From IMG/VR virus record IMGVR_UViG_3300045988_053496: a stretch of DNA of 38,933 bases. One strand, given 5' to 3'. The translations under genes were made by a program, and so were the position numbers. Source of the stretch: a virus. Below are positions 6,978-23,549 of the stretch, in pieces. The notes under the pieces are model-generated. The model was not told the DNA's origin, made no database searches, and saw only the letters and a list, made by a program, of their open reading frames with translations. Numbering within the stretch: position 1 is the first letter of the stretch; the number at the start of each line of letters is the position of its first letter.

Positions 6978-8087
6978 CTATTTTTTAGCCGAAACAGACC
7001 CGTACAAGGCCGCTGTTCCTGCCGCCATTTTGGCGTTGATTTCGTCCTGCCGTTCGCGGAAAAGCTCGACGTACACCTGATGGGAGAAAGCGGATGTTGA
7101 ATGACCCATGACGCGGGCAAGCTCTTCCTCGGATGCGCCGGAGTATGCGACCGACGTTGCGAAGAAGTGGCGCAAATCGTAGAAGCGCATGGTTTCCGGA
7201 AGCCCTAGGTCTTTGCGCGTGATATCCCATCTGTAAATAACGCGGCTGGGCTTCATCTGGAAAACCTGCTCGTTGTCTTTTCCTCGTGGCTTTGCGTCGT
7301 AAAGGTTTTCAAAGAAAGACCAGTCAACGCGCAGGACGCGCTCTCCCGCGTCGCTTTTCGTCCCTTTGGGTTGAAATCCCTTTTCGCCGCGCACGATTGC
7401 CTTGTCGATGTTGATCGTGCCGATTTTGTATGTCCTGCCGCTCGAATCCAGCGCATCAATAGGGGATGCGGATAAATCCCCCCACGTCAGAGCGTAAGCC
7501 TCAGAGGGACGCAAGCCCGCGCTGATGATGAAGCAGCAGTAGAGGTAGAAATCCGTCTCCCAGCGTTCCGCGACGTATCGGAGAATGTCGCCAGCCCACT
7601 TTTCGGAAAAGAGCTGCTTTTTCTTCCGCTTGAGCTTTGCGAGAACAATTCCATTAAGCTGTAGATCGGGGACGTTCTTCTCCAAAATCGTCTTGAGGAA
7701 GAAGTAGTCATTTCTGACCGTCTTCGGCGTGTGTTCCCGCGCCCGGTCGTCAAGCGCCTTCTGCACATCACGGGGCGTGATTTGATCGAGCTTCACGTTG
7801 ACCAGCGACGGGAAGCTGTTCTTGCGGATGGTGACATATCCTCTCAGTGTAGACGGCGAATAGCCCTGCACCCGACAAGTGTCTATAAACTCGTCCATTG
7901 CCTGACCGAGCGTCAGCGTTTGCTTCTTCTTCCGCTTGCGATCGGCAGCAGCGACGGCGGCAAGACGTTCAGATTCGCGGGCGGTCGATGCGGTAAAGGA
8001 TTCGACGATTGGCTTTCCTGCTGCATCCCTGCCGAGGTAAACCTGTGTTCGCCAGTTGCCGGACGGCAGCTTTTTTGCTTTTGCCAT
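6978..8087 (-). CDS. int: Tyrosine recombinase / phage integrase
   Basis: N-terminal AKKLPSGNWRTQVYLG arm-binding-type motif. C-terminal RFYDLRHFFATS...MGHST...VY gives the R..HxxR..Y catalytic set. Confidence 0.93.
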   Translation of the reverse strand: MAKAKKLPSGNWRTQVYLGRDAAGKPIVESFTASTARESERLAAVAAADRKRKKKQTLTLGQAMDEFIDTCRVQGYSPSTLRGYVTIRKNSFPSLVNVKLDQITPRDVQKALDDRAREHTPKTVRNDYFFLKTILEKNVPDLQLNGIVLAKLKRKKKQLFSEKWAGDILRYVAERWETDFYLYCCFIISAGLRPSEAYALTWGDLSASPIDALDSSGRTYKIGTINIDKAIVRGEKGFQPKGTKSDAGERVLRVDWSFFENLYDAKPRGKDNEQVFQMKPSRVIYRWDITRKDLGLPETMRFYDLRHFFATSVAYSGASEEELARVMGHSTSAFSHQVYVELFRERQDEINAKMAAGTAALYGSVSAKK

Positions 8088-9989: not shown

Positions 9990-10073
9990 ACATTTTGTGA
10001 AGTAAATACTTTTCACAAAACGAGAAATTTTTTCACAAAATGTATTTACAAAAAGTGAAAATAATGATATAAT
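9990..10073. promoter_or_regulatory. Immunity switch: operator repeats with divergent promoters
   Basis: TTTTCACAAAA occurs at 10010-10020 and 10030-10040, exactly 20 bp apart. The inverted partner TTTTGTGAA is at 9993-10001 and GTGAAAA at 10055-10061. Rightward promoter: TTTACA (10045-10050), 17 nt, TATAAT (10068-10073). Confidence 0.7.
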
Positions 10074-10120: not shown

Positions 10121-10312
10121 ATGGATTTGCGTGAGTTGCGCAGCAAAAAGGGATTATCTCAACAGCTTGTTGCTGATAAGTCTGGGATATCAACATCCCT
10201 TTACTGCATGGTCGAGAACGGAAAACGTCGCCCTTCCGTTGAAACCGCAAAAAAGATTGCGGCGACACTTGGATTTGACTGGACGCGATTCTTCCAAGAC
10301 AAGGAGGCTTGA
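10121..10312 (+). CDS. Cro-like XRE-family HTH protein
   Basis: MDLRELRSKKGLSQQLVADKSGISTSLYCMVENGKRRPS. RBS aaaaaggagg. Confidence 0.85.
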   Translation: MDLRELRSKKGLSQQLVADKSGISTSLYCMVENGKRRPSVETAKKIAATLGFDWTRFFQDKEA

Positions 10313-10317
10313 ACGTG

Positions 10318-10587
10318 ATGAAAAAGCGCCAGCGGAATTGGAGCGCGGAAGACGATCTTTTCCGGCGACAGGTTGGTCAGCTCTGCGGTGTGTCCGGCAT
10401 GAGCAAGGCTGAGCTGGCGCTGAACCTCGGCGTCTCGACAAAGACGCTGTACAACCGGATCAACCACCCGGAAACGCTGACAAAGCTGGAAGAGCGCAGG
10501 TTGTACGAGCTGATGCAAGCCGAAGGGCTTGAGTATCAAGCAGGGTTTGACGGCGTGGCACTGCCGCGCCTGATGATCGCAAGGTAA
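10318..10587 (+). CDS. HTH protein (early regulator or excisionase candidate)
   Basis: MSKAELALNLGVSTKTLYNRI helix-turn-helix. Confidence 0.55.
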   Translation: MKKRQRNWSAEDDLFRRQVGQLCGVSGMSKAELALNLGVSTKTLYNRINHPETLTKLEERRLYELMQAEGLEYQAGFDGVALPRLMIAR

Positions 10588-10677
10588 AAAAAGAACCGCC
10601 CAGCGTTGCAGCGCGGAACGGCCAGAGAGAACAAAAAATGACGTGGTTATTGTACCACGGAAAGGGATGAAATATCA

Positions 10678-10836
10678 ATGCTTAAAGCGCAGTTTATCGG
10701 ATTCTTTGCCCGCCTGCTTGAAGGGCTGGGCATGGCGCTTGCGTACACGCTGGCGGCGGCTTTCGCTGGCGCGGTGCTGCTGCTTATTGTCTGCATCATC
10801 GCGGAAATGGACAAGGAGGGTAAGAAGGATGTGTGA
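10678..10836 (+). CDS. Small single-TM protein (52 aa, below the ORF-track cutoff)
   Basis: ATG at 10678 after aaaggga. MLKAQFIGFFARLLEGLGMALAYTLAAAFAGAVLLLIVCIIAEMDKEGKKDV. Its stop overlaps the next start. Confidence 0.5.
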   Translation: MLKAQFIGFFARLLEGLGMALAYTLAAAFAGAVLLLIVCIIAEMDKEGKKDV

Positions 10837-11053
10837 TATCTGCCACAGCTTCCCGTGTTTGAGCGGTTGCCCGAACGCCGAACCCGATATGCCTGTATGT
10901 CAGTGCAGCAGATGCAAGGCGACGATCTATGAGGGCGACAAGATTGCGGAGATCGGCAACAAGGTTTTGTGTGAGGATTGCGCCGACAGCATCAGCACGA
11001 CGGAGTGGCTTGAGCTGCTCGGCACCGGATGGACATTTGCGGAGGCGATTTGA
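10829..11053 (+). CDS. Cys-rich zinc-ribbon-like small protein
   Basis: ATG at 10829 after aaggaggg. MCDICHSFPC..CQCSRCK...LCEDC. The upstream 62 codons of ORF 10643 are Arg-rich and judged non-coding. Confidence 0.6.
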   Translation: MCDICHSFPCLSGCPNAEPDMPVCQCSRCKATIYEGDKIAEIGNKVLCEDCADSISTTEWLELLGTGWTFAEAI

Positions 11054-11055
11054 AA

Positions 11056-12009
11056 ATGAAAGAAATCTACAGCGTGTACAAGGACACGCGCAACATGAGC
11101 CGCGCAGAATGGCTCGCGGCTCGAAAAGCCGGAATTGGCGGCAGCGATGCGGCCGCGATCATTGGCTTGAACCCGTTCTCATCGCCGCTCACGGTCTGGG
11201 CGGATAAGACCAGCGCGGACGAGCCGCTGGAAGAGAGTGAGAGCGAGGCGATCTGGCTCGGAAACGTGCTGGAAGACCACGTAGCGAGGCGATACGCCGA
11301 AGAGAGCGGTCTGAACATCGTCAGATGCAATCAGATGATGCAGAGCATCGAGCATCCCTACATGCTGGCGAACATCGACCGCCGCGTCAAGGGCAAGAGG
11401 ATCGGCGTTGAGATCAAGACGACATCCTCCTTCACAAAGACCGATTTTGCCGGAGGGGACATCAACCCGTGGTACTACGCGCAGTGCATGCACTACCTCG
11501 CGGTCACGGGCTGGGATGAGTGGAAGCTCGTAGTGCTGGTCATCGGCCGCGGGCTGTATACATACAGCTTTAAGCGTAAAGAGAACGAAGACCAGATCAA
11601 GGCGCTCATCTCCGCTGAAGATTTCTTCTGGCATGAGTACGTCGAGCAAGGCAAATGCCCGCCCGTTGACGGAAGCAAGGCGGCGGAAGAAATCCTGACC
11701 AAGCGCTATCCCGTATCTGACGGCTCGACCATCACGCTTGACTGTGATGATGCAATCAGCCAATACATGACGCTGACGAGCAAAATCAAAGAGCTTGAGG
11801 GAGATAAAGCCCTGTATGAGCAGCGTATCAAGGAGTGCATGGGCGAATCTGAGCGCGGAGAAAGCGCGAATTACATCGTAAGCTGGAAAAACAGCAGCCC
11901 GAGAAAGACCATCGACACCAAGCGGCTCACAGAGGAACACCCCGAAATCGTTGACAGATACATCAAGATTGGCGCACCTACACGCCGATTCATGGTCAAG
12001 GAGGCATAA
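11056..12009 (+). CDS. YqaJ-type viral recombinase exonuclease (lambda Exo-like, PD-(D/E)XK)
   Basis: EWLAARKAGIGGSDAAAIIGLNPFSSPLTVW is the YqaJ N-terminal signature. Paired with recT. Confidence 0.88.
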   Translation: MKEIYSVYKDTRNMSRAEWLAARKAGIGGSDAAAIIGLNPFSSPLTVWADKTSADEPLEESESEAIWLGNVLEDHVARRYAEESGLNIVRCNQMMQSIEHPYMLANIDRRVKGKRIGVEIKTTSSFTKTDFAGGDINPWYYAQCMHYLAVTGWDEWKLVVLVIGRGLYTYSFKRKENEDQIKALISAEDFFWHEYVEQGKCPPVDGSKAAEEILTKRYPVSDGSTITLDCDDAISQYMTLTSKIKELEGDKALYEQRIKECMGESERGESANYIVSWKNSSPRKTIDTKRLTEEHPEIVDRYIKIGAPTRRFMVKEA

Positions 12010-12013
12010 AAGC

Positions 12014-12940
12014 ATGGAAAGACAGGCAAGAAACACGGCGGGAATTATCACAAACGCAACCGCCAGCCGCGCACCCGTCGCGGCGACTACGACCGCACCC
12101 GTCGCGGCGAGAACGGTCAATCAGATTTTGAACGGCATGTTCGATTCTGAGGGCTACAAAAAACGCCTGAGCGACTTGCTGGGTGATCGAGCGCCGCAAT
12201 TTATCTCGGCGGTCATCACACTTTGCAACGCGGATGCAAACCTGACGGCGGCGGTTCGGCAAGCCCCGCAGACGGTCATTCAGGCGGCACTCAAGGCCGC
12301 AAGCTATGATCTTCCGGTTGACAATGCGCTCGGTTTCGCCTACATCGTGCCGTTCAACAACAGCAAAAAGACGGACGACGGAAACTGGATCAAGATTCCG
12401 GAAGCACAGTTCATCCTCGGCTACAAGGGCATGATTCAGCTTGCGCTTAGAACCGGAGCATACAAGCGGCTGAACGTCATGGATGTGCGCGAAGGAGAGC
12501 TGATCTCATGCGACAGGTTGACCGAAGACTTTGAGTTCCGCTGGGAACAGGACGAGGCGGAGCGTGAGAAACTACCGATCATCGGCTATGTCGGATATTA
12601 TCGCCTTGTGAATGGCACAGAGAAGACGGTGTACATGAGCGTTCAGCAGATCGAGGCGCACGAAGCGAAGAACCGAAAGGGAAAGAATCAGGGCAAAGGC
12701 TGGCGCGACGACTGGGATGCTATGGCGCGGAAAACCGTCATGCGCCGCTTGCTCGGACGCTGGGGCGTTATGTCCATCGACTACAAGAGCGCATCTCCCG
12801 CCGCGCTGAAAGCGGCACATGATATAAGCGCGGGGCTGGTCGATGATGAATCTCCGTTGCCTGACGGCATCTTAGATGTAACAGACACAGGAGCGGCGCA
12901 CGACGCGCCGGAGAACGTGTCCGAAGACAAGGAACAATAA
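12014..12940 (+). CDS. recT: RecT-family single-strand annealing protein
   Basis: SYDLPVDNALGFAYIVPF...ILGYKGMIQLALRTG matches the RecT core. RBS aaggagg. Confidence 0.9.
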   Translation: MERQARNTAGIITNATASRAPVAATTTAPVAARTVNQILNGMFDSEGYKKRLSDLLGDRAPQFISAVITLCNADANLTAAVRQAPQTVIQAALKAASYDLPVDNALGFAYIVPFNNSKKTDDGNWIKIPEAQFILGYKGMIQLALRTGAYKRLNVMDVREGELISCDRLTEDFEFRWEQDEAEREKLPIIGYVGYYRLVNGTEKTVYMSVQQIEAHEAKNRKGKNQGKGWRDDWDAMARKTVMRRLLGRWGVMSIDYKSASPAALKAAHDISAGLVDDESPLPDGILDVTDTGAAHDAPENVSEDKEQ

Positions 12941-12944
12941 TAAA

Positions 12945-13425
12945 ACTGCAAGGGCTAAACCCTTGCGCATGGTGCGCAGCTCAGGAGAGCGAACGCGGGA
13001 CGTAAAGCGGCGTTACGCGAGAAGGGGCGGCTCGATACCGCCGCGCGCCGAGCAGCAGGAGAAATCCATATTTTGTAACAAGCACCCCCGCTTGAAACGA
13101 TATCGCCCACAGAAAGGAGGACACAGGGCAGGCAAATTCACACTGGCGGCTCGGAAAGACGAGCAAAAGACCAACAACAATAGGCTCAAAAGGTTTGGGC
13201 AACGCACATTTTTTCTGACAGCCGGAAAGACGGCAAATAAAAAGACGTTTCACAAACGGCCTGCCGTCGGGCTAAAACGGCGGCACTCATGGCAAGCGTG
13301 GAAGGCATCGCGCGGGTGCAACACCCCCCCTATTCGTCAAGGTTTCTTCCTTTCCTTCCGTTCTTACAAGATTGACGCGAAGCACCTTGCCCACGCGCCC
13401 GGTTCGATTCCGGGGCTTGCCACAA
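12945..13425 (+). ncRNA. Candidate large structured ncRNA with tRNA-like modules at both ends
   Basis: About 510 nt with no credible ORF in an otherwise tightly packed genome. Many GC-rich hairpins and two CG-GAAAGA-CG hairpins. T-arm-like ggcgg-ctcgata-ccgcc (13026-13042). Perfect T arm cccgg-ttcgatt-ccggg (13398-13414) with a 7-bp acceptor-like closure. Confidence 0.45.
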
Positions 13426-13450
13426 TTTTACAACCAGAAAGGAGAACCTC

Positions 13451-14146
13451 ATGCTCGATTACTTAAAAATTTTTCCGGAGTTTGAGACGATGCTCAGGCG
13501 ATATACGGACGAAGAGCGCGGTCGGCTTTTTATGGCCATGATGGCCTATGCGTATCGCGGCGAAGAGCCTGATTTCGATGAGGACGCGCACGAATGGTAC
13601 ATCTGGGACACGATCAAGCTAAAGATTGACCAGTGCGCCGAAACGCTCGAATCCAAGCGAGCGAGCGGGAAGAAGGGCGGAAGCGCCAAGCAGACCGAAG
13701 CAGACGCAAGCAAAGCCAAGCAGACTGAAGCAGACGCAAGCGAAACCGACATATATAAGAATAAGAATAAGAATAAGAATAAGAGTAGTAGTAGTTACGT
13801 ACCCCCTACCCCCTACGACGACATCGGCGACGACGAACTGCTGCGACTGCGGCAGGAACAGCAGGACGTGGAGACAGCCGCAAGGCGTGTCGGCTTGCCT
13901 GTCAGCGCTGCTGGCGACTATGACACCATGGACAACCTACGCGCGGAGCATGGAGCGGACAATCTGCTCAAGGCCATATCCCGGATTCAGGGCGCGACCG
14001 AGAAAAGCCGAGACTGGCGGTATATCTCCGGGATTCTCCGCAAAGAGAAAGCATCCGGCTACACATGGACGGAAAAACCGCCGAACGCATCAGGAGGGAT
14101 AAACTATGAACGACCCGAGCCAAGAAGCCACACGCGCGATCTCTGA
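13451..14146 (+). CDS. Replication initiation / replisome-organiser protein (DUF6291-like N-terminus, DnaD-like C-terminus)
   Basis: YTDEERGRLFMAMMAYAYRGEEP at the N-terminus. C-terminal SRDWRYISGILRKEKASG is DnaD-like. Immediately precedes the helicase. Confidence 0.7.
   Translation: MLDYLKIFPEFETMLRRYTDEERGRLFMAMMAYAYRGEEPDFDEDAHEWYIWDTIKLKIDQCAETLESKRASGKKGGSAKQTEADASKAKQTEADASETDIYKNKNKNKNKSSSSYVPPTPYDDIGDDELLRLRQEQQDVETAARRVGLPVSAAGDYDTMDNLRAEHGADNLLKAISRIQGATEKSRDWRYISGILRKEKASGYTWTEKPPNASGGINYERPEPRSHTRDL
13685..13741. repeat. Tandem direct repeat, two 27-nt copies at a 30-nt period, inside the initiator gene
   Basis: gccaagcagac(c/t)gaagcagacgcaagc at 13685-13711 and 13715-13741. 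Confidence 0.9.
13757..13780. repeat. (AAGAAT)x4 microsatellite forming an AT-rich island, followed by (AGT)x3
   Basis: aagaataagaataagaataagaat encodes KNKNKNKN. Confidence 0.9.
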
Positions 14147-15353
14147 GCGGGCTTTTTGCGGCGCGATCATCAGGGGCGACACCAGAGCGACGGACGCGGG
14201 GCTGAAAGCCGATTGGTTCACCGTGCCCGTTTGCCGACGTATATTCTCGGCGGCGCTGGCGATTGAGAGACAGGGACGGCCTTGCGACCTTGCGACGCTC
14301 GAAGAGATTCTTAGCGATGACGATCTCCACGAGGCAATCACCATCGCGGCGGAGACCGTCACGACGGCGCTTGCAGACCAGCAGGCGGACAACATCCGCC
14401 TCGCGGCAATGCGCAGGGAGATCGTCAAAACATGCCTAGAGACAGCGCGAACGGCGAACGAGGGCGAAATATCGACGACAGAGCTGCTAGACGGCGCTGT
14501 GATGCGATTAAATGCGCTCAGCGGACAAACAGACGACTGCGGTGTAATCAGCAGCACAGACGCGATTTGCGGCTTCTACGCGCGACTGACAAGCGGAGCG
14601 GTCGAGCCGGTCACAAAGACGGGCTTTCCCAAACTCGACAGGGCGCTGATGATTGCGGGCGGAAAACTGATCGTCGTCGGCGCGAGGCCGTCGGTCGGCA
14701 AGTCTGCGTTTCTGCTGCACCTTGCGGTTAAGGCGCTGGACGTTGGCCGGAAAATCCTGCTGGTATCGTGCGAGATGGGCGCGGATGAGATCATCGGGCG
14801 CATCGTGGCGCAGAAAAGCCGCGTATCGTCTGACAAGATCGAGCGTCACGAGCTGGACGACAGCGAAATTGTCAAAGTCGCGGAGAGTTTCGCAGAAATC
14901 CCTTCCGAGCAGCTTTTTATCAGCGAAAGGGTGCGAACTGTGCGCGACATAAGGCGCATGGCACTTAGAATCCGCGCGAGATGCGGGCTGGATATGATTG
15001 TCGTCGATTACTTGCAGCTTCTCGACGCGGGGCAGAAGACGAGCAACCGCTCGGAGGCGGTCGGCGTTGTCACACGAGCGCTTAAATCGCTGGCGATGGA
15101 GCTTAAAATCCCGATCCTGACCGCAAGTCAGCTTAACCGTGCAAGCGAGCGCAACGACGCGCCGAGGCTCTCCGATCTGCGCGAATCCGGCAGTATCGAG
15201 CAGGACGCGGACGCGGTGCTTCTTCTCCACGCGCCGGACGACAAGGACAACCCGGAAAGGCTGCTGTTCCTCGACAAAAACCGAGGCGGAGAATGCGGGA
15301 AAATCAGACTGTATTTTGACGGCGCGACCATGAGATTTTCAGAAATGCAATGA
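14106..15353 (+). CDS. Replicative DNA helicase, DnaB family
   Basis: Walker A GARPSVGKSAF. DMIVVDYLQLL, SQLNRASE and LRESGSIEQDADAV are DnaB C-terminal motifs. Confidence 0.92.
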   Translation: MNDPSQEATRAISERAFCGAIIRGDTRATDAGLKADWFTVPVCRRIFSAALAIERQGRPCDLATLEEILSDDDLHEAITIAAETVTTALADQQADNIRLAAMRREIVKTCLETARTANEGEISTTELLDGAVMRLNALSGQTDDCGVISSTDAICGFYARLTSGAVEPVTKTGFPKLDRALMIAGGKLIVVGARPSVGKSAFLLHLAVKALDVGRKILLVSCEMGADEIIGRIVAQKSRVSSDKIERHELDDSEIVKVAESFAEIPSEQLFISERVRTVRDIRRMALRIRARCGLDMIVVDYLQLLDAGQKTSNRSEAVGVVTRALKSLAMELKIPILTASQLNRASERNDAPRLSDLRESGSIEQDADAVLLLHAPDDKDNPERLLFLDKNRGGECGKIRLYFDGATMRFSEMQ

Positions 15354-15364
15354 CGGAGGAAAGC

Positions 15365-15739
15365 ATGAAAAAGCAAGTACCGACCGAATCCGAAGAGCAG
15401 CAGACCCTTTTCCGCTGGGCGGCGATGCAGAGCGGGAAATACCCAGAGCTTGCGCTGATGTTCCATATCCCCAACGAGGGGAAACGAAGCTGGATGACGG
15501 GCGGCAGGATGAAGGCCGAAGGGCTGAAAAGCGGAGTGCCTGACATCTTCCTGCCCGTCCCGCGTAGAGAGTTTCACGGGCTTTTTGTCGAGATGAAGCG
15601 GACGAAGGGCGGGACGGTCAGCGACTGTCAAAAGCTATGGCTGCATGACTTGCAAAAACAAGGCTATTGCGCGGCGGTGTGCCGGGGATGGTGCGAAGCT
15701 GCGGAGCAAATAAAAAAATATTTGGAGGCAAAAGCGTGA
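15365..15739 (+). CDS. VRR-NUC domain nuclease
   Basis: ESEEQQTLFRW...HIPNEG...GVPDIFL...FVEMKR is the PD-(D/E)XK VRR-NUC pattern. The ATG at 15365 has GGAGG 5 nt upstream (alternative start at 15350). Confidence 0.85.
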   Translation: MKKQVPTESEEQQTLFRWAAMQSGKYPELALMFHIPNEGKRSWMTGGRMKAEGLKSGVPDIFLPVPRREFHGLFVEMKRTKGGTVSDCQKLWLHDLQKQGYCAAVCRGWCEAAEQIKKYLEAKA

Positions 15740-16194
15740 ACAAGGTTTTTTTGATCGGGAATCTGACCCGCGACCCGGAAATGCGATCCACGCAGTCCGG
15801 CGTTGCGGTCTGCAACTTCACGATTGCGGTAAATCGCCGCTTTCGTAACCCGCAGACCGGTCAGCAGGAAACGGATTTTCTGAACGTCATCGCGTGGCGG
15901 CAGTTGGCCGAGCTGTGCAGCAAGTATCTTGCCAAAGGGCGCAAGGTAGCCGTGACGGGAAGCATCCAAACCCGCACCTACGAGGCGCAGGACGGAAGCA
16001 AGCGGACGGCGTGGGATATTGTCGCCGACGAGGTGGAGTTCCTGACGACGCAGAACCAGCAGAGCAGCACACAGAGCGCGCCGGGGGCATACACGACGGC
16101 GGCGAGCAAAGACAGCGGGACGGCCTATGCGCCGCAACCGCACAACGATTTTGGCGGGTTCACGCAGGTGGACGACGAAGAATTGCCGTTTTGA
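15736..16194 (+). CDS. ssb: Single-stranded DNA-binding protein
   Basis: NKVFLIGNLTRDPEMR...FLNVIAWRQLAE OB-fold motifs and an acidic tail DDEELPF. GTG start after ggagg. Confidence 0.93.
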   Translation: MNKVFLIGNLTRDPEMRSTQSGVAVCNFTIAVNRRFRNPQTGQQETDFLNVIAWRQLAELCSKYLAKGRKVAVTGSIQTRTYEAQDGSKRTAWDIVADEVEFLTTQNQQSSTQSAPGAYTTAASKDSGTAYAPQPHNDFGGFTQVDDEELPF

Positions 16195-16208
16195 TGGGAG
16201 GTTCAAGC

Positions 16209-16637
16209 GTGAATAGCTGTTTATTTTCAAGCGCAACCGTCGAGTGGGCAACGCCGCAGGCTCTTTTTGACGAGCTGGACGCGGAGTTCCATTTCAACCT
16301 TGACCCGTGCTGCACACATGAGAACGCGAAATGTGCGGAACACTTCACCAAGGTGGAGGATGGTCTTTCCCAAAATTGGGGGGGTAAAAGGGTATTTTGC
16401 AATCCGCCATACGGGCGAGAACTTCCGAAATGGATCAAGAAAGCGCACGACGAGGCCGAGAAAGGCGCGCTGGTGGTGATGCTCATTCCTGCGAGAACAG
16501 ACACCCGAGCCTTTCACGACTACATTTACCATCAAGCCGAGATTAGGTTTTTGAAAGGGCGGATCAAGTTTGGCAACGCGAAAGCGTCCGCGCCTTTTCC
16601 GTCGATGGTGGTTATTTTTAGAGGAGGAACGAAATGA
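16209..16637 (+). CDS. Phage Dam-type DNA N6-adenine methyltransferase
   Basis: WATPQALFDELDAEFHFNLDPC...NAKC...FCNPPYG...MLIPARTDTRAFH is the small phage Dam family pattern with NPPY. Confidence 0.85.
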   Translation: MNSCLFSSATVEWATPQALFDELDAEFHFNLDPCCTHENAKCAEHFTKVEDGLSQNWGGKRVFCNPPYGRELPKWIKKAHDEAEKGALVVMLIPARTDTRAFHDYIYHQAEIRFLKGRIKFGNAKASAPFPSMVVIFRGGTK

Positions 16638-21772: not shown

Positions 21773-22264
21773 GTGCCGACGGTGGACTGGGAGCGGATAA
21801 GAGCCGAGTATATAGCAGGCGGCGCATCCATACGCAATCTAGCTGACAAGTACGGAATTTCCAAGGACGCGGTCGGACGAAGAGCGAAAGCGGAAAAGTG
21901 GAAAGAGACCCGCGACAAAACCGCGACAAAAGTGCGACAAAGGACAAATGAGCGCATTGTTGCGCAGAAAGTGGACGAAGCCGCGAATAACGCTGTTATT
22001 GCTGCAAGAATTCGGTCAAAGCTGCTTCTCCGACTGGAAAGCGAGATAGACGCTCTTCCCAGTAGCATCGGAACGGAGAGTGCAAAGGACATCATCAAGT
22101 CTGAGAAAGGCGGAGGAAGACGTGAGGTCATGTCGAAGCGTTGGCGGCTTCGCGATCTGACGGCGGCTTATAAAGATTTGACGGCAGACATGGACTTGGC
22201 GGATGTTGACACCGAAGACATTGACGCGACACGCGAAGAGGTATATGGTGATGAAGACACGTAA
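21773..22264 (+). CDS. terS: Terminase small subunit
   Basis: N-terminal HTH ASIRNLADKYGISKDAVGRRAKAEKW. Directly upstream of terL. GTG start. Confidence 0.8.
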   Translation: MPTVDWERIRAEYIAGGASIRNLADKYGISKDAVGRRAKAEKWKETRDKTATKVRQRTNERIVAQKVDEAANNAVIAARIRSKLLLRLESEIDALPSSIGTESAKDIIKSEKGGGRREVMSKRWRLRDLTAAYKDLTADMDLADVDTEDIDATREEVYGDEDT

Positions 22265-23549
22265 ATATGTGCCTGTTTTCAGCCCAAAGCACCTCTCGTA
22301 TATCCGCGCCTGTCGAAAAAATATGTACAACATCGCCGAGGGAGCTGTTCGCGCCGGAAAGACGGTTGATAATGTTTTCGCCTTCTGCACCGAGCTTGAA
22401 ACTTGCCCGGACAAGATACACCTTGCGAGTGCTTCAACATCGCCAACGGCAAAGCTGAATATCGGGGACTGTAACGGGATGGGCATTGAAGCCCAGTTCC
22501 GTGGACGCTGCACATGGGGCAAATATCGAGGAAACGACTGCATCCGCGTCAGGACGAAAACGGGAGAGAAGATTGTAATCTTTGCCGGAGCTGGAAAGGC
22601 AGACAGCTTCAAGCGAATCCGAGGAAACAGTTACGGCATGTGGATTGCAACGGAGGTCAACCTTCACCATGAATCTTTTATTCAGGAGGCGTTCAACCGA
22701 ACCGCTGCGGCAAAACTGAGAAAGTTCTTCTGGGACTTGAACCCAAGCGCACCGAATTCTCCGATCTATGAAAAATATATCGACCTGTACCGCATAAAGC
22801 AGGAGCGCGGAGAATTGCCGGGCGGCTGTAATTACGAGCTGTTTCTGATGCGCGACAATGCGACAATATCCGACGAGAGATTCGCGGAAATTGTCGCACA
22901 GTACGACCCACAATCCGTATGGTATAAACGGGACATCGAGGGAAAGCGCGTATCAGCCGAGGGCATGATCTACCCCGGTTATTCCTCAGCGCTCGAAACA
23001 CCGTTCACGCCGCCGCGCTGGCGTGATGTTTTTATTTCCATTGACTACGGCACACAAAACGCCTTCGCTGCTCTGTTGTGGGGCAAGAGCGAGGGCGTTT
23101 GGCATATTTTCCGGGAATATCGCTACTCAGGACGCGACACGCAGGTGCAAAAGACCGATGAGGACTATGTGCGCGACATGGAGCGGTTCGTCAGCGAGAG
23201 CCTGCCGGAAGACCAGCAGCGCAGCGTGATGACGATCATTGACCCTTCTGCTGCATCGTTCATCGCGGCGCTCAGACGCTCACGGCTTGCCTTCCGTGTA
23301 CGCAAGGCAGACAACGACGTGCTGGACGGCATCCGCGACGTTGCGGTTTGTATGCAGCGCGGAGACATACGGATTTTCGACAATCTGCCGGAGCTGCGGA
23401 AAGAATTTGACGGCTATGTTTGGGACGACAAGGCGGACGACAAGCCGATCAAGGTAAATGACCACCTAATGGACGCGCTGCGCTATGGAGTGCGCACCAT
23501 GCGGCTTGTCAAGCCGAAGGAAGAGTATAAAAGCCCATTTTTCGCATAA
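22245..23549 (+). CDS. terL: Terminase large subunit (PBSX-like family)
   Basis: Walker A AEGAVRAGKT. C-terminal nuclease-region motifs IDYG...DPSAASFI. Alternative ATG at 22251. Confidence 0.92.
   Translation: MVMKTRKYVPVFSPKHLSYIRACRKNMYNIAEGAVRAGKTVDNVFAFCTELETCPDKIHLASASTSPTAKLNIGDCNGMGIEAQFRGRCTWGKYRGNDCIRVRTKTGEKIVIFAGAGKADSFKRIRGNSYGMWIATEVNLHHESFIQEAFNRTAAAKLRKFFWDLNPSAPNSPIYEKYIDLYRIKQERGELPGGCNYELFLMRDNATISDERFAEIVAQYDPQSVWYKRDIEGKRVSAEGMIYPGYSSALETPFTPPRWRDVFISIDYGTQNAFAALLWGKSEGVWHIFREYRYSGRDTQVQKTDEDYVRDMERFVSESLPEDQQRSVMTIIDPSAASFIAALRRSRLAFRVRKADNDVLDGIRDVAVCMQRGDIRIFDNLPELRKEFDGYVWDDKADDKPIKVNDHLMDALRYGVRTMRLVKPKEEYKSPFFA

What the first reader, a model, noticed from the sequence alone, without database searches (positions are those of the whole stretch)
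12941..13450. About 510 nt ORF-free, hairpin-dense region between recT and the replication initiator: candidate large phage ncRNA
Seen in sequence: genes elsewhere in this genome abut or overlap, yet no credible ORF exists here. The only long frame (12963..13466) is an Arg/Lys-rich read-through with no RBS, and it runs into the next gene. The + strand carries many compact helices. These are gcaaggg/cccttgc (12948-12966), ggcgg-ctcgata-ccgcc (13026-13042), and caagc-accccc-gcttg (13079-13094). Two hairpins share an identical CG-GAAAGA-CG top (13149-13164 and 13221-13234), each followed by AAAAGAC. There is also gccgt/acggc (13263-13281) with a competing acggc at 13256-13260, gggtg-caa-caccc (13314-13326), and a perfect tRNA-type T arm (13398-13414). 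Established knowledge: very large ornate ncRNAs such as ROOL and GOLLD are typically prophage-borne in Firmicutes and often sit beside tRNA or tRNA-like sequences. Inference: this is a phage-encoded structured RNA, either a member of such a class or undescribed. A replication origin upstream of the initiator gene is the main alternative.
Basis: partly seen in the sequence, partly recalled or inferred. Interest (0 to 1): 0.8.

Follow-up and report, generated by a model that had tools for sequence, protein, structure and literature searches.

The report
Phage RNA cassette with tRNA-like modules
The gap between the recombination and replication genes of this human-gut phage is a conserved, folded, non-coding RNA cassette (two tRNA-shaped modules, each preceded by a hairpin, around a variable set of identical-loop hairpins) that matches no described RNA family and probably serves as a cutting signal that splits the phage's early transcript and releases small stable RNAs.

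Summary
Window 12941-13450 has no conserved reading frame and is conserved at nucleotide level in 53 distinct variants from gut viral and metagenome contigs. Rfam 15 and ARAGORN give no hits. It is also probably not one large ornate RNA.

The region is a cassette:
- Hairpin H1 (12948-12966).
- A 79-nt cloverleaf, TL1 (12971-13049).
- A string of local hairpins, including 1-6 copies (2 here) with an invariant GAAAGA loop on covarying stems.
- A second hairpin (13263-13284).
- A 131-nt tRNA-derived module, TL2 (13291-13421). It has a canonical T arm, a 7-bp acceptor stem and a D-like mini-hairpin. A long helix opens into a 73-nt CU-rich loop. N-CCA is encoded in 24 of 53 variants.

Both modules are covariation-supported: 96-97% of cells are paired against 26-53% in slid controls, with 7 and 9 pairs showing compensatory changes.

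Best reading (inferred, about 0.5): tRNA-like punctuation. RNase P and RNase Z cut the early operon transcript, leaving hairpin-protected 3' ends and releasing small RNAs. A better origin candidate, iterons plus an AT-rich repeat, lies inside the downstream gene at 13685-13784.

The parts
12948..12966 (+). Hairpin H1 (GCAAGGG-CUAAA-CCCUUGC). It ends 4 nt before TL1.
   Evidence: Present in every variant with four different stems: GCAAGGG/CCCUUGC, GCCGGG/CCCGGC, GCGGGA/UCCCGC and GCAGGG/CCCUGC. Fold energies are -12 to -16 kcal/mol. It is kept even where the upstream gene differs.
12971..13049 (+). tRNA-like module 1 (TL1), a 79-nt cloverleaf. Its parts are: acceptor 12971-12977 with 13043-13049; D arm GCUC-AGGA-GAGC at 12979-12990; a long anticodon-like arm at 12994-13019 with an 8-nt loop UAAAGCGG (consensus NNWAGCRG); and a T-like arm GGCGG-CUCGAUA-CCGCC at 13026-13042.
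   Evidence: RNAalifold predicts the acceptor, the inner anticodon-like stem and the T-like arm without guidance. On the model-fitted alignment A5 (44 distinct sequences), 95.7% of cells are paired against 26-53% in slid controls, and 9 pairs have compensatory changes. Model R1 scores the window at 92.5 bits.
13058..13129 (+). Three local hairpins after TL1: GGA-GAAA-UCC (13058-13067); CAAGC-ACCCCC-GCUUG (13079-13094); and GCCC-loop-GGGC (13105-13129). The last loop carries CAGAAAGGAGGAC (13110-13122), a near copy of the real ribosome-binding site.
   Evidence: These come from sequence and per-variant minimum-energy folds. The third stem differs between variant types (GCCC/GGGC, GCUCC/GGAGC, GCGCC/GGCGC) while keeping a purine-rich loop. 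Support is weaker than for the tRNA-like modules.
13149..13164 (+). GAAAGA-loop hairpin, copy 1 (GCUCG-GAAAGA-CGAGC), followed by AAAAGAC.
   Evidence: the family has 14 distinct stems that all pair, with an invariant loop GAAAGA or GAGAGA. Wobble pairs occur only in the + strand sense (7 U.G and 1 G.U). Copy number is 0-6 across 53 variants.
13184..13200 (+). Hairpin GCUCAAA-AGG-UUUGGGC, inside a 40-nt insert found only in the window, L001 and L006 variant types.
   Evidence: Minimum-energy folds and the alignment. It is lineage-specific and shows no covariation.
13221..13234 (+). GAAAGA-loop hairpin, copy 2 (GCCG-GAAAGA-CGGC), followed by AAAUAAAAAGAC.
13263..13284 (+). Hairpin before TL2 (GCCGUC-GGGCUAAAAC-GGCGGC). 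It ends 6 nt before TL2.
   Evidence: Present in all variants at -15 to -20 kcal/mol. The stems covary: GCCGUC/GGCGGC, GCCGCC/GGCGGC, GCCGCUGG/CCAGCGGC and GCUGGCGG/CCGUCAGC.
13291..13421 (+). tRNA-like module 2 (TL2). Its parts are: acceptor 13291-13297 with 13415-13421; a D-like mini-hairpin GUG-GAAGG-CAU at 13298-13308; a long helix 13309-13316 with 13390-13397; a 73-nt internal loop containing a CU-rich tract (13341-13366) and the near-invariant block ACGCGAAGCACCUUGCCC (13375-13392, whose last three bases are already the start of the long helix's 3' strand); and a T arm CCCGG-UUCGAUU-CCGGG at 13398-13414. The discriminator is A13422, followed by CAA.
   Evidence: RNAalifold finds all four helices. 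On A1, 97.1% of cells are paired against about 42% in slid controls. On A4 (54 distinct sequences) there are 7 pairs with compensatory changes, including acceptor GGCAAGC/GCUUGCC to GGCAGAC/GUCUGCC. A matched G/C insertion occurs in the long helix. Model R2 scores the window at 159 bits and also hits genuine tRNAs at 30-40 bits.
13435..13453 (+). Ribosome-binding site CAGAAAGGAGAAC and the ATG of the DUF6291 gene. This is the downstream boundary of the cassette.
   Evidence: The cassette always sits directly upstream of a DUF6291-type gene, whereas the upstream gene varies: RecT, SSB or another gene.

Best explanation
The region is a + strand, non-coding RNA cassette inside the phage's early operon. 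It is built from two tRNA-derived modules, TL1 and TL2. Each is preceded at 3-6 nt by a stable hairpin. Between them lies a string of local hairpins, including a variable number with the loop GAAAGA.

**Shown.** The folds, their conservation and covariation, their tRNA-like geometry, the absence of coding, and the absence from Rfam.

**Inferred mechanism.**
- The tRNA-like modules act as 'punctuation'. Host RNase P cuts at the 5' end of each module.
- RNase Z or 3' exonucleases, plus the CCA-adding enzyme, finish the 3' ends.
- The polycistronic early transcript is thereby split into five products:
  1. a recombination mRNA ending in hairpin H1;
  2. a 79-nt TL1 RNA;
  3. a hairpin-array RNA of about 235 nt (about 365 nt in six-copy variants) ending in its own protective hairpin;
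  4. a 131-nt TL2 RNA ending in CCA;
  5. a separate replication mRNA with a short leader.
- This would uncouple the stability and dosage of the recombination and replication messages and release stable small RNAs.

**Not known.** What the released RNAs do. The invariant GNRA-like GAAAGA loops suggest protein docking, and the CU-rich loop of TL2 suggests pairing with purine-rich RNA.
For: **Non-coding and conserved.**
- 72-100% nucleotide identity across viral contigs, with frame-shifting indels.
- 53 unique full elements.

**Structure.**
- TL2: 97.1% paired, 7 compensatory pairs, no shuffle out of 500 as good.
- TL1: 95.7% paired, 9 compensatory pairs.
- RNAalifold finds the same helices unaided.

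**Strand.** G.U and U.G pairs are abundant while A.C is rare. The region sits in a + strand operon behind a strong promoter at 10045-10073, and the consensus scan finds no internal promoter-like or + strand terminator-like site.

**tRNA geometry relevant to RNase P.**
- Both modules have a 7-bp acceptor stem plus a 5-bp T stem, a 7-nt T loop, and a GG in the D-like loop. The T loop is UUCGAUU in TL2.
- The -1 base of the single-stranded leader is U in nearly all variants.
- TL2 is followed by N-CCA in 24 of 53 variants and by a non-CCA tail in the rest. This is the pattern seen among real tRNA genes.
- Model R2 also recognises bona fide tRNAs.
- ARAGORN, run relaxed and allowing introns, places a tRNA frame on TL2.

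**Hairpin-then-module arrangement.**
- It occurs twice here and in every variant.
- It recurs in an unrelated prophage. There an 89-nt TL2-like element follows the major head gene and a hairpin.

**Precedent (PMC4919922).** RNase P processes non-tRNA substrates with tRNA-like folds. Examples are the phage P1/P7 c4 RNA precursor, polycistronic operon mRNAs, and MALAT1/mascRNA. In MALAT1 the cut creates the 3' end of the upstream RNA.
Against: - No transcript ends have been seen, so cleavage is entirely inferred.
- Rfam's tRNA model does not reach E<=10 on either module. Default ARAGORN finds nothing.
- The hairpins lie only 3-6 nt from the presumed cleavage sites. This could hinder the RNase P protein, which contacts the leader (my own knowledge, not tested).
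- The discriminator base of TL2 varies (A, G, U, C). That is compatible with processing but argues against a specific aminoacylation role.
- Punctuation alone does not explain three features: the invariant 18-nt block in the TL2 loop, the invariant GAAAGA loops, or the conserved NNWAGCRG loop of TL1.
- One close relative of the downstream gene (L025) has no cassette, so the cassette is dispensable.
Confidence: 0.5

Rival explanations
1. One large ncRNA acts as a whole, as ROOL and GOLLD are thought to. The tRNA-like parts would be structural domains of a single particle of about 480-600 nt rather than cleavage signals.
For: - The full set of modules is always found together and in the same order, in 53 variants.
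- ROOL and GOLLD are phage-associated and lie near tRNAs (PMC5737381).
- Several loops are invariant, as expected for tertiary or intermolecular contacts.
Against: - No Rfam match, even at E<=10.
- No long-range helices were found beyond those closing each tRNA-like module.
- The middle part gains and loses 0-6 hairpins by recombination. This is hard to reconcile with one fixed architecture.
- TL2-like elements exist on their own elsewhere.
Confidence: 0.13
2. A cis-acting leader that controls the replication genes. In one version the GAAAGA hairpins are boxB-like docking sites for a phage RNA-binding protein, as in N-type antitermination. In another, the CU-rich tract and the purine-rich decoy loops modulate access to the ribosome-binding site of the DUF6291 gene.
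For: - The cassette always sits directly upstream of the DUF6291-type gene while the upstream gene varies.
- The hairpins have 4-6 bp stems and a GNRA-like purine loop. They resemble boxB, whose penta- and hexaloops are read by N peptides (PMC12550061).
- The loop at 13110-13122 nearly duplicates the real ribosome-binding site at 13435-13447.
Against: - The TL2 loop shows no special complementarity to this gene's start region. It ranks 22 of 37 genes.
- The CU tract does not change with ribosome-binding-site type.
- The consensus scan finds no terminator-like site in or just after the cassette that would need to be overridden.
- Variable hairpin copy number is unusual for nut sites.
- No N-like protein was identified.
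Confidence: 0.15
3. A DNA-level element: a replication origin, or single-strand initiation hairpins used on unwound DNA. The repeated GGAAAGAC units would serve as initiator binding sites.
For: - It lies next to the replication module.
- It has repeated units with a conserved 8-10 bp core and variable copy number.
- It contains GCGAAGC, a sequence known as a very stable DNA mini-hairpin (my own knowledge).
Against: - The stems covary while the asymmetric loop is fixed, so hairpin formation is what is selected, not a duplex sequence.
- Spacing is irregular, at 28-71 nt.
- GC content is 0.53-0.57, the same as the flanks, with no AT-rich stretch.
- Canonical tRNA features (T loop, acceptor stem, CCA) make sense only at the RNA level.
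- A textbook origin candidate lies inside the DUF6291 gene. It has a 10-bp periodic repeat CCAAGCAGAC x5.6 at 13686-13741, then (ATAAGA)5 at 13755-13784.
Confidence: 0.08
4. Decaying remnants of a phage tRNA gene cluster (pseudo-tRNAs) with no function of their own, or a misannotated protein gene (the 167-aa Arg/Lys-rich frame).
For: - TL2 resembles genuine phage-type tRNAs.
- A public annotation calls a 167-aa ORF here.
Against: - Compensatory changes and 96-97% pairing across 44-54 distinct sequences show selection for the folds.
- The ORF is broken or shifted in most variants, and no peptide is conserved.
- The frame has no Pfam hit.
Confidence: 0.05

Closest known systems
tRNA-like RNase P/RNase Z processing elements: phage P1/P7 c4 RNA precursor, RNase P sites in polycistronic operon mRNAs, MALAT1-mascRNA, mitochondrial tRNA punctuation and plant t-elements
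   Same: - A tRNA-shaped fold sits inside a longer transcript, between functional units.
- It has an acceptor/T minihelix and, in many variants, a CCA end.
- The upstream RNA would acquire a protected 3' end, as MALAT1 does (PMC4919922).
- Like c4, the element lies in a phage operon upstream of genes it could influence.
   Different: - There is no sequence or model similarity to any of them. Rfam, which includes the C4 family, gives no hit.
- Here two modules bracket a hairpin array.
- Protection would come from simple hairpins, not a triple helix.
- Cleavage has not been shown.
ROOL and GOLLD large ornate RNAs
   Same: Phage or prophage association, non-coding, several hundred nucleotides long, and close to tRNA-type sequences (PMC5737381).
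   Different: - No covariance-model match at any threshold tried.
[quoted passage not shown] This element is a linear series of local hairpins plus two cloverleaf-type modules, and its length varies.
- This element is confined to one clade of gut phages.
tmRNA (tRNA-like domain plus internal region)
   Same: TL2 has an acceptor stem, a T arm and a D-like loop with GG. It also has a long helix that opens into a large internal region, and a CCA end in many variants. This layout resembles the tRNA-like domain and helix 2 of tmRNA.
   Different: - ARAGORN (also in relaxed tmRNA mode) and the Rfam tmRNA models do not detect it.
- Position 3:70 is C-G, not G.U.
- No tag reading frame is conserved.
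- At 131 nt it has no pseudoknots.
- The discriminator base varies.
Lambdoid boxB (nut) hairpins
   Same: Short hairpins (4-6 bp) capped by a purine-rich, GNRA-like loop, in the early operon of a temperate phage upstream of the replication genes (PMC12550061).
   Different: - The loop is a hexaloop, GAAAGA.
- There are 0-6 copies.
- No boxA, no N homologue and no downstream terminator were identified.
- The host is presumably a Firmicute, where this system is not known (my own knowledge).
Bacterial Y RNA-like (YrlA) tRNA mimics
   Same: A non-coding RNA with a domain that mimics the T and D arms of tRNA; some are phage-encoded (PMC4201824, abstract).
   Different: - No Rfam match.
- The topology differs: here the acceptor stem carries the free 5' and 3' ends, and the insertion replaces the anticodon loop.
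- No Ro (Rsr) gene is apparent in the genes examined around the cassette (10300-16500); the rest of the window was not scanned.

Membership tests
ROOL (Rfam) and GOLLD (Rfam) | Match to the family covariance model at or near the gathering score | tested here: not met
   There are no Rfam hits at gathering score in the window or in 9 homologous loci. There are no ROOL or GOLLD hits at E<=10 in 12700-13700, or at E<=5 in the long variant L008.
ROOL (Rfam) and GOLLD (Rfam) | Large fixed architecture with many multistem junctions and pseudoknots (PMC5737381) | tested here: not met
   Only local hairpins and two cloverleaf-type modules were recovered. The distance from the start of TL1 to the end of TL2 varies from 378 to 589 nt, through gain and loss of hairpins. 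Pseudoknots were not searched for systematically.
tRNA | Detection by ARAGORN or the Rfam tRNA model | tested here: not met
   ARAGORN at default settings finds none in the window or in 8 homologues. No tRNA-model hit at E<=10.
tRNA | 7-bp acceptor stem stacked on a 5-bp T stem with a 7-nt T loop; D loop with GG | tested here: met
   Both TL1 and TL2 meet this. The TL2 T loop is the canonical UUCGAUU. Model R2 aligns to genuine tRNAs.
tRNA | 5-bp anticodon stem with a 7-nt loop and a conserved anticodon | tested here: not met
   TL1 has a 9-10 bp arm with an 8-nt loop. TL2 has a 73-nt loop here, and other variants differ in length (about 66-99 nt). In relaxed intron mode ARAGORN assigns seven different anticodons to seven variants.
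tmRNA | G3.U70 alanine identity pair, a conserved tag reading frame ending in a stop codon, and pseudoknots | tested here: not met
   Position 3:70 is C-G in all 54 sequences. Peptides upstream of the conserved UGA/UAA use three frames and are not conserved. ARAGORN in tmRNA mode finds none.
RNase P / RNase Z substrate of tRNA-like type (c4 precursor, mascRNA, t-elements) | Acceptor/T minihelix of about 12 bp, a single-stranded 5' leader, and G+1 paired with C72 | tested here: met
   Both modules have 7+5 bp and a G1-C72 pair. The leaders are 3-6 nt long, and the -1 base is U in nearly all variants.
RNase P / RNase Z substrate of tRNA-like type (c4 precursor, mascRNA, t-elements) | 3' RCCA or a trailer compatible with RNase Z | tested here: inconclusive
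   TL2 is followed by GCCA, ACCA or UCCA in 24 of 53 variants, by ACAA in 20 and by CCAU in 9. TL1 is followed by GAGC, GAAC or AAGC and never by CCA.
RNase P / RNase Z substrate of tRNA-like type (c4 precursor, mascRNA, t-elements) | Actual cleavage at the predicted sites | not testable with these tools
   No transcript data are available. This needs end mapping or in vitro cleavage.
Iteron-type replication origin | Direct repeats of constant sequence at regular spacing, next to an AT-rich unwinding region | tested here: not met
   The stems of the repeats differ (14 versions) and the spacing is 28-71 nt. GC content is 0.53-0.57. These features are met instead at 13685-13784, inside the next gene.
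CsrB/RsmZ-type protein sponge | Model match, and many GGA motifs in hairpin loops | tested here: not met
   The only PrrB_RsmZ hit scores 16.6 bits against a gathering score of 44. It lies mostly over the end of recT and H1. By my own hand count from the sequence, GGA occurs about 10 times in 510 nt, roughly what base composition predicts. This was not tested by shuffling.
Lambdoid nut site (boxA/boxB) | A boxB hairpin with a GNRA-like loop, plus boxA and a cognate N protein | tested here: inconclusive
   The hairpin shape is similar (PMC12550061). BoxA and an N homologue were not searched for systematically. The only candidate noticed is a small basic HTH-like ORF at 10309-10587, which has no PHROG hit.

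The most novel reading that the evidence does not exclude
The cassette is a new class of phage regulatory locus. Host tRNA-maturation enzymes would carve an operon transcript into several stable small RNAs. One is a CCA-ended tRNA mimic whose anticodon loop is replaced by a 73-nt CU-rich (often CCUCC-containing) region with an invariant 18-nt block. Another is a GA-rich hairpin array that docks or titrates a protein. Together they would manipulate host translation, tRNA-handling enzymes or tRNA-targeting defences during the switch to replication. Related stand-alone TL2-like elements, such as the one after the head gene in L151, would make tRNA-like punctuation a general device of gut Firmicute phages.
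Probability: 0.25. Interest if true: 0.8.

Novelty: new variant of a known kind. Interest (0 to 1): 0.62.

Why it matters
If the model holds, it shows that temperate gut phages use tRNA-shaped signals inside operons. These signals would set the ends and stability of their messages and produce small RNAs without dedicated promoters or terminators.

This principle is known from mitochondria, MALAT1, herpesvirus tRNA-miRNA units and the P1 c4 RNA. It has not been described as a conserved, multi-module cassette in Firmicute phages.

The work also has practical results:
- It flags a recurrent annotation error: a 167-aa ORF is called over the cassette.
- It supplies two calibrated covariance models and 53 variants for wider searches.
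- It yields sharp predictions of transcript ends at four positions and of untemplated CCA on TL2. These can be checked directly in existing gut metatranscriptomes.

The function of the invariant GAAAGA loops and of the TL2 loop block would remain open but approachable.

Tried and rejected
1. **Rfam families.** Gathering and permissive thresholds on the window and on homologues gave nothing relevant.
2. **tRNA or tmRNA.**
   - ARAGORN at default settings found none. Relaxed tmRNA mode also found none.
   - Relaxed intron mode places a tRNA frame on TL2, but the anticodons are inconsistent.
3. **Coding.** No frame is conserved. I tested whether the conserved UGA/UAA before CGCGAAGC ends a tmRNA-like tag or a small ORF. 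The peptides differ and use three frames.
4. **Remnant of an attachment site or a host tRNA.**
   - No genome in the GTDB representative set has a real tRNA with this 3' end, and none carries the element.
   - The integrase is 5 kb away, at 6978-8087.
5. **Anti-Shine-Dalgarno pairing of the TL2 loop with the downstream start region.** Duplex energy ranks 22 of 37 genes, so there is no specificity.
6. **The internal CUUGCC as an alternative partner of the TL2 5' acceptor strand.** It does not change when the acceptor changes in the L006 group, so this is not supported.
7. **Other phages.**
   - Phages with more distant RecT homologues (L053-L109) gave no hits with models R1 or R2.
   - GenBank phages gave no DNA or protein match.
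8. **Other GAAAGA hairpins in the genome.** One extra CGGAAAGACG at 22355 lies inside a large ORF (22203-23549) and encodes a P-loop-like AGKT. It is a chance match.
9. **CsrA-type sponge.** A weak 16.6-bit hit only, and no obvious excess of GGA by eye.
10. **Literature.** A search for GAAAGA hexaloop binding proteins found nothing relevant.
Full report
**1. The observation**

The finding covers the 510 nt between RecT (11951-12940) and a DUF6291 protein (13451-14146). An overlapping DnaB-type helicase follows, and then VRR-NUC and SSB genes.

- Neighbouring genes abut or overlap, so a gap this size is unusual.
- The only long + strand frame (12963-13466, 167 aa) has no Pfam hit. A public annotation nevertheless calls it a gene.

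Chance statistics are mixed.

- The whole-region fold is only mildly better than shuffles on the + strand. It has z = -1.71, and 7 of 100 shuffles fold as well. On the - strand z = -0.16, which is no better than shuffles.
- The 10-mer around the shared loop is enriched: 4 matches against 0.48 expected.
- The T-arm consensus occurs once against 0.12 expected.

**2. Conservation without coding**

Protein-anchored searches and a DNA-pattern search recovered the same intergenic element. Sources were IMG/VR viral contigs and human-gut metagenome contigs.

- BLASTN shows 72-100% identity over the region.
- There are 53 unique full-length versions.
- ORFs in the homologues are cut and shifted in many different ways.
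- Peptides read upstream of a conserved UGA/UAA use three different frames.

The sequence is therefore conserved as nucleic acid, not as protein.

The cassette always lies directly upstream of a DUF6291-type gene. The upstream gene can be RecT, SSB or something else. One close relative of the downstream gene (L025) lacks it.

The lineage is known only from metagenomes.

- GenBank phages give no DNA or protein match.
- No GTDB representative genome carries the element.
- The window matches a 38.9-kb human-gut metagenome scaffold.

**3. Anatomy (window coordinates, + strand)**

- **H1, 12948-12966.** A 7-8 bp hairpin ending 3-4 nt before TL1.
  - It is present in all variants, with four different stem sequences.

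- **TL1, 12971-13049.** A 79-nt cloverleaf with these parts:
  - acceptor GGUGCGC/GCGCGCC;
  - D arm GCUC-AGGA-GAGC;
  - a 9-10 bp anticodon-like arm capped by an 8-nt loop, NNWAGCRG;
  - a T-like arm GGCGG-CUCGAUA-CCGCC.

  Support for TL1:
  - RNAalifold finds the acceptor, the inner stem and the T-like arm unaided.
  - Hand parsing shows compensatory changes at acceptor positions 5 and 6 and one-sided changes (U.G, C-G, U-A) at position 3. It also shows compensatory changes in both parts of the long arm and in the T stem.
  - On a model-fitted alignment of 44 distinct sequences, 95.7% of cells pair against 26-53% when partners are slid. Nine pairs change on both sides, and no shuffle out of 500 reaches the observed score. 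Because this alignment was fitted to the structure, the figures lean somewhat towards it.

- **13058-13129.** Three local hairpins.
  - The third carries, in its loop, CAGAAAGGAGGAC (13110-13122). This is a near copy of the real ribosome-binding site CAGAAAGGAGAAC (13435-13447).

- **The hairpin array.** Here it has two copies, at 13149-13164 and 13221-13234.
  - Across variants there are 0, 1, 2, 4 or 6 copies, in 1, 5, 24, 1 and 22 variants respectively.
  - The loop is always GAAAGA, or GAGAGA in one position.
  - The 4-6 bp stems come in 14 versions, and all of them pair. Examples are CUUCG/CGAAG against CUUUG/CAAAG.
  - Hybrid units in some variants show that copies are lost by recombination between loops.

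- **A second strong hairpin, 13263-13284.** It ends 5-6 nt before TL2 and has covarying stems.

- **TL2, 13291-13421.** Its parts are:
  - acceptor GGCAAGC/GCUUGCC;
  - a three-pair D-like hairpin with a GNAGG loop;
  - an 8-9 bp G+C-rich helix that abuts the T stem with no variable region;
  - the canonical T arm CCCGG-UUCGAUU-CCGGG.

  The long helix encloses 73 nt here, and the length differs among variants.
  - The enclosed region contains a CU-rich tract whose sequence differs between lineages.
  - It also contains an almost invariant block, ACGCGAAGCACCUUGCCC (13375-13392). The last three bases of this block begin the long helix's 3' strand.

  Support for TL2:
  - RNAalifold recovers all four helices.
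  - On the MAFFT alignment, 97.1% of cells pair against about 42% in slid controls.
  - With 54 distinct sequences, seven pairs show double changes.
  - The acceptor switches from GGCAAGC/GCUUGCC to GGCAGAC/GUCUGCC.
  - The D-like stem switches from AUG/CAU to AUA/UAU.
  - One lineage carries a matched G insertion on one strand and a C insertion on the other strand of the long helix.

It can form in all lineages, so an alternative conformation cannot be excluded.

  After the acceptor, 24 of 53 variants encode N-CCA (GCCA, ACCA, UCCA). Another 20, including this window, have ACAA, and 9 have CCAU.

**4. Strand and transcription**

- G.U and U.G pairs are frequent in the helices, while A.C is rare. 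This fits a + strand single-stranded molecule.
- The cassette sits in the rightward early operon, behind a strong promoter-like site at 10045-10073.
- The consensus scan finds no promoter-like site and no + strand terminator-like site within or next to the cassette.
- H1 read on the - strand resembles a terminator in some variants but not in all.

**5. What it is not**

- **Rfam 15.** No family matches at gathering score in the window or in nine homologous loci. Nothing relevant appears at E<=10 in 12700-13700 or at E<=5 in the L008 element region. This covers ROOL, GOLLD, tRNA, the tmRNAs, C4, YrlA, CsrB and RsmZ.
- **ARAGORN.**
  - It finds neither tRNA nor tmRNA at default settings.
  - With lowered thresholds and introns allowed, it places a tRNA frame on TL2 in 6-7 of 7 variants. 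It assigns seven different anticodons, so there is no conserved anticodon.
- **Attachment site.** The integrase lies at 6978-8087. No genuine tRNA with this 3' end exists in the representative genomes.

**6. tRNA ancestry and a wider class**

The TL2 model also hits real tRNAs in environmental contigs, at 30-40 bits.

- These contigs were selected by the shared T-arm/acceptor pattern, so part of the score is built in.
- One of these tRNAs (L188) also shares the 5' GGCAgGC-AUG...CAU arrangement, which the pattern did not require.

The same model finds an 89-nt element in two MAG prophages (L151, L153). It has the TL2 layout:

- acceptor stem;
- a three-pair D-like hairpin with GG;
- a six-pair helix abutting the T arm;
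- a 29-nt loop containing ACCUCCU.

That element lies immediately after the major head gene and a strong hairpin. The arrangement 'hairpin, a few nucleotides, tRNA-like module' therefore recurs in an unrelated place in an unrelated phage.

**7. Mechanism**

The best-supported reading is tRNA-like punctuation. Both modules offer what bacterial RNase P measures:

- a stacked acceptor/T helix of 7+5 pairs;
- a T loop;
- a G1-C72 pair;
- a short single-stranded leader whose -1 base is almost always U.

TL2 behaves like real tRNA genes in sometimes encoding CCA and sometimes not.

Cutting at the 5' side of each module would leave the upstream RNA ending in a stable hairpin. The RNase P-made 3' end of MALAT1 is protected in a comparable way. 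RNase P is already known to process a phage regulatory RNA precursor (P1/P7 c4) and operon mRNAs (PMC4919922).

The predicted products are:

1. a recombination mRNA ending in H1;
2. TL1 RNA;
3. the hairpin-array RNA;
4. TL2 RNA with CCA;
5. a replication mRNA with a roughly 28-nt leader.

All of this is inference, because no transcript ends are available. Punctuation also does not explain the invariant loops. These are GAAAGA, NNWAGCRG and the TL2 block, and they suggest further partners. The GAAAGA hairpins resemble boxB-type GNRA-like loops that phage peptides read (PMC12550061).

I tested one concrete idea: that the CU-rich TL2 loop pairs with the adjacent ribosome-binding site. There is no specificity, as it ranks 22 of 37 genes.

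**8. The origin alternative**

- The repeated units keep an asymmetric loop and vary their flanks while preserving complementarity. Their spacing is irregular, and the region is not AT-rich.
- The DUF6291 gene itself contains a 10-bp-periodic repeat (CCAAGCAGAC x5.6, 13686-13741). This is followed by (ATAAGA)5 at 13755-13784. It has the iteron plus AT-rich layout of origins that lie inside replication-organiser genes (my own knowledge).
- This removes the need for an origin in the intergenic region, though it does not prove the absence of one.

**9. Novelty and verdict**

The element is real, conserved and structured, and it belongs to no curated family. A 2023 catalogue of about 10,000 candidate structured RNAs from IMG/VR reports 'tRNA or tRNA-like' candidates (PMC10690425). 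It may contain fragments of this element, which I could not check.

In kind, it is a new variant of tRNA-like processing elements and phage non-coding RNAs, not a new category.

- Confidence that it is a + strand structured RNA with two tRNA-derived modules is high, about 0.85.
- Confidence in the processing mechanism is moderate, about 0.5.

Interest is moderate to high. The design is unusual and testable, but it is confined to one clade of gut phages and its function is unproven.

Noticed in passing
window 13685-13784 (inside the DUF6291 gene): A 10-bp-periodic direct repeat, CCAAGCAGAC x5.6 (also readable as 30 nt x1.9), is followed by (ATAAGA)5. This is an iteron plus AT-rich arrangement that looks like the phage replication origin. 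It encodes a low-complexity linker of the protein.
   Followed up: partly
L151 3091-3179 (+) and L153 1144-1232 (-): An 89-nt TL2-like element sits right after a major head protein gene (phrog_422, 1e-57) and a strong hairpin. It has an acceptor stem, a 3-bp D-like hairpin with GG, a 6-bp helix abutting the T arm, and a 29-nt loop containing ACCUCCU. It occurs in prophages of Avilachnospira and Ructibacterium MAGs, and ARAGORN does not call it.
   Followed up: partly
L188 762-835 and L189 126-199: Environmental contigs carry a 74-nt tRNA next to tRNA-Ile(TAT). ARAGORN calls it Ser(CGA), which is unusually short for Ser. It shares with TL2 the acceptor GGCAgGC, the AUG...CAU D region and the T arm. 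It may be the kind of tRNA from which TL2 descends.
   Followed up: partly
window 12963-13466; L156 2513-3016: The public ENA annotation of the matching gut-metagenome scaffold calls a 167-aa ORF with no domains across the cassette. Comparison with homologues shows this is an annotation artefact.
   Followed up: yes
window 13110-13122 and 13435-13447: The loop of a conserved hairpin (CAGAAAGGAGGAC) nearly duplicates the real ribosome-binding site of the downstream gene (CAGAAAGGAGAAC). It may be a decoy, or a second site for the same binding partner.
   Followed up: no
L020 2099-2540 (= L037): In one variant an extra 135-aa HTH-type ORF (MDREIVAQRLRKSRKKSGLNQHQAAEKLGTSQSAVVSYETGKRLPP...) is inserted between recT and the cassette. 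The cassette then starts with a different H1 stem, GCGGGA/UCCCGC. L025 has a similar DUF6291 gene but no cassette.
   Followed up: no
window 10045-10073 and 6978-8087: A strong promoter-like site (TTTACA-17-TATAAT with an upstream TG) heads the rightward early operon that contains the cassette. A tyrosine-type integrase is encoded on the - strand at 6978-8087, so this is a temperate phage.
   Followed up: partly
window 22355-22364: A third CGGAAAGACG with partly complementary flanks lies inside the large ORF 22203-23549. It encodes AGKT, a P-loop-like motif. This is a coding coincidence, not part of the RNA family.
   Followed up: yes
window 12948-12966, - strand: Read on the - strand, H1 is followed by a U-run and resembles an intrinsic terminator. 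This holds in this window (AGUUUUAUUA) and in many variants (GGUUUUU), but not in the L001, L006 or L029 types.
   Followed up: partly
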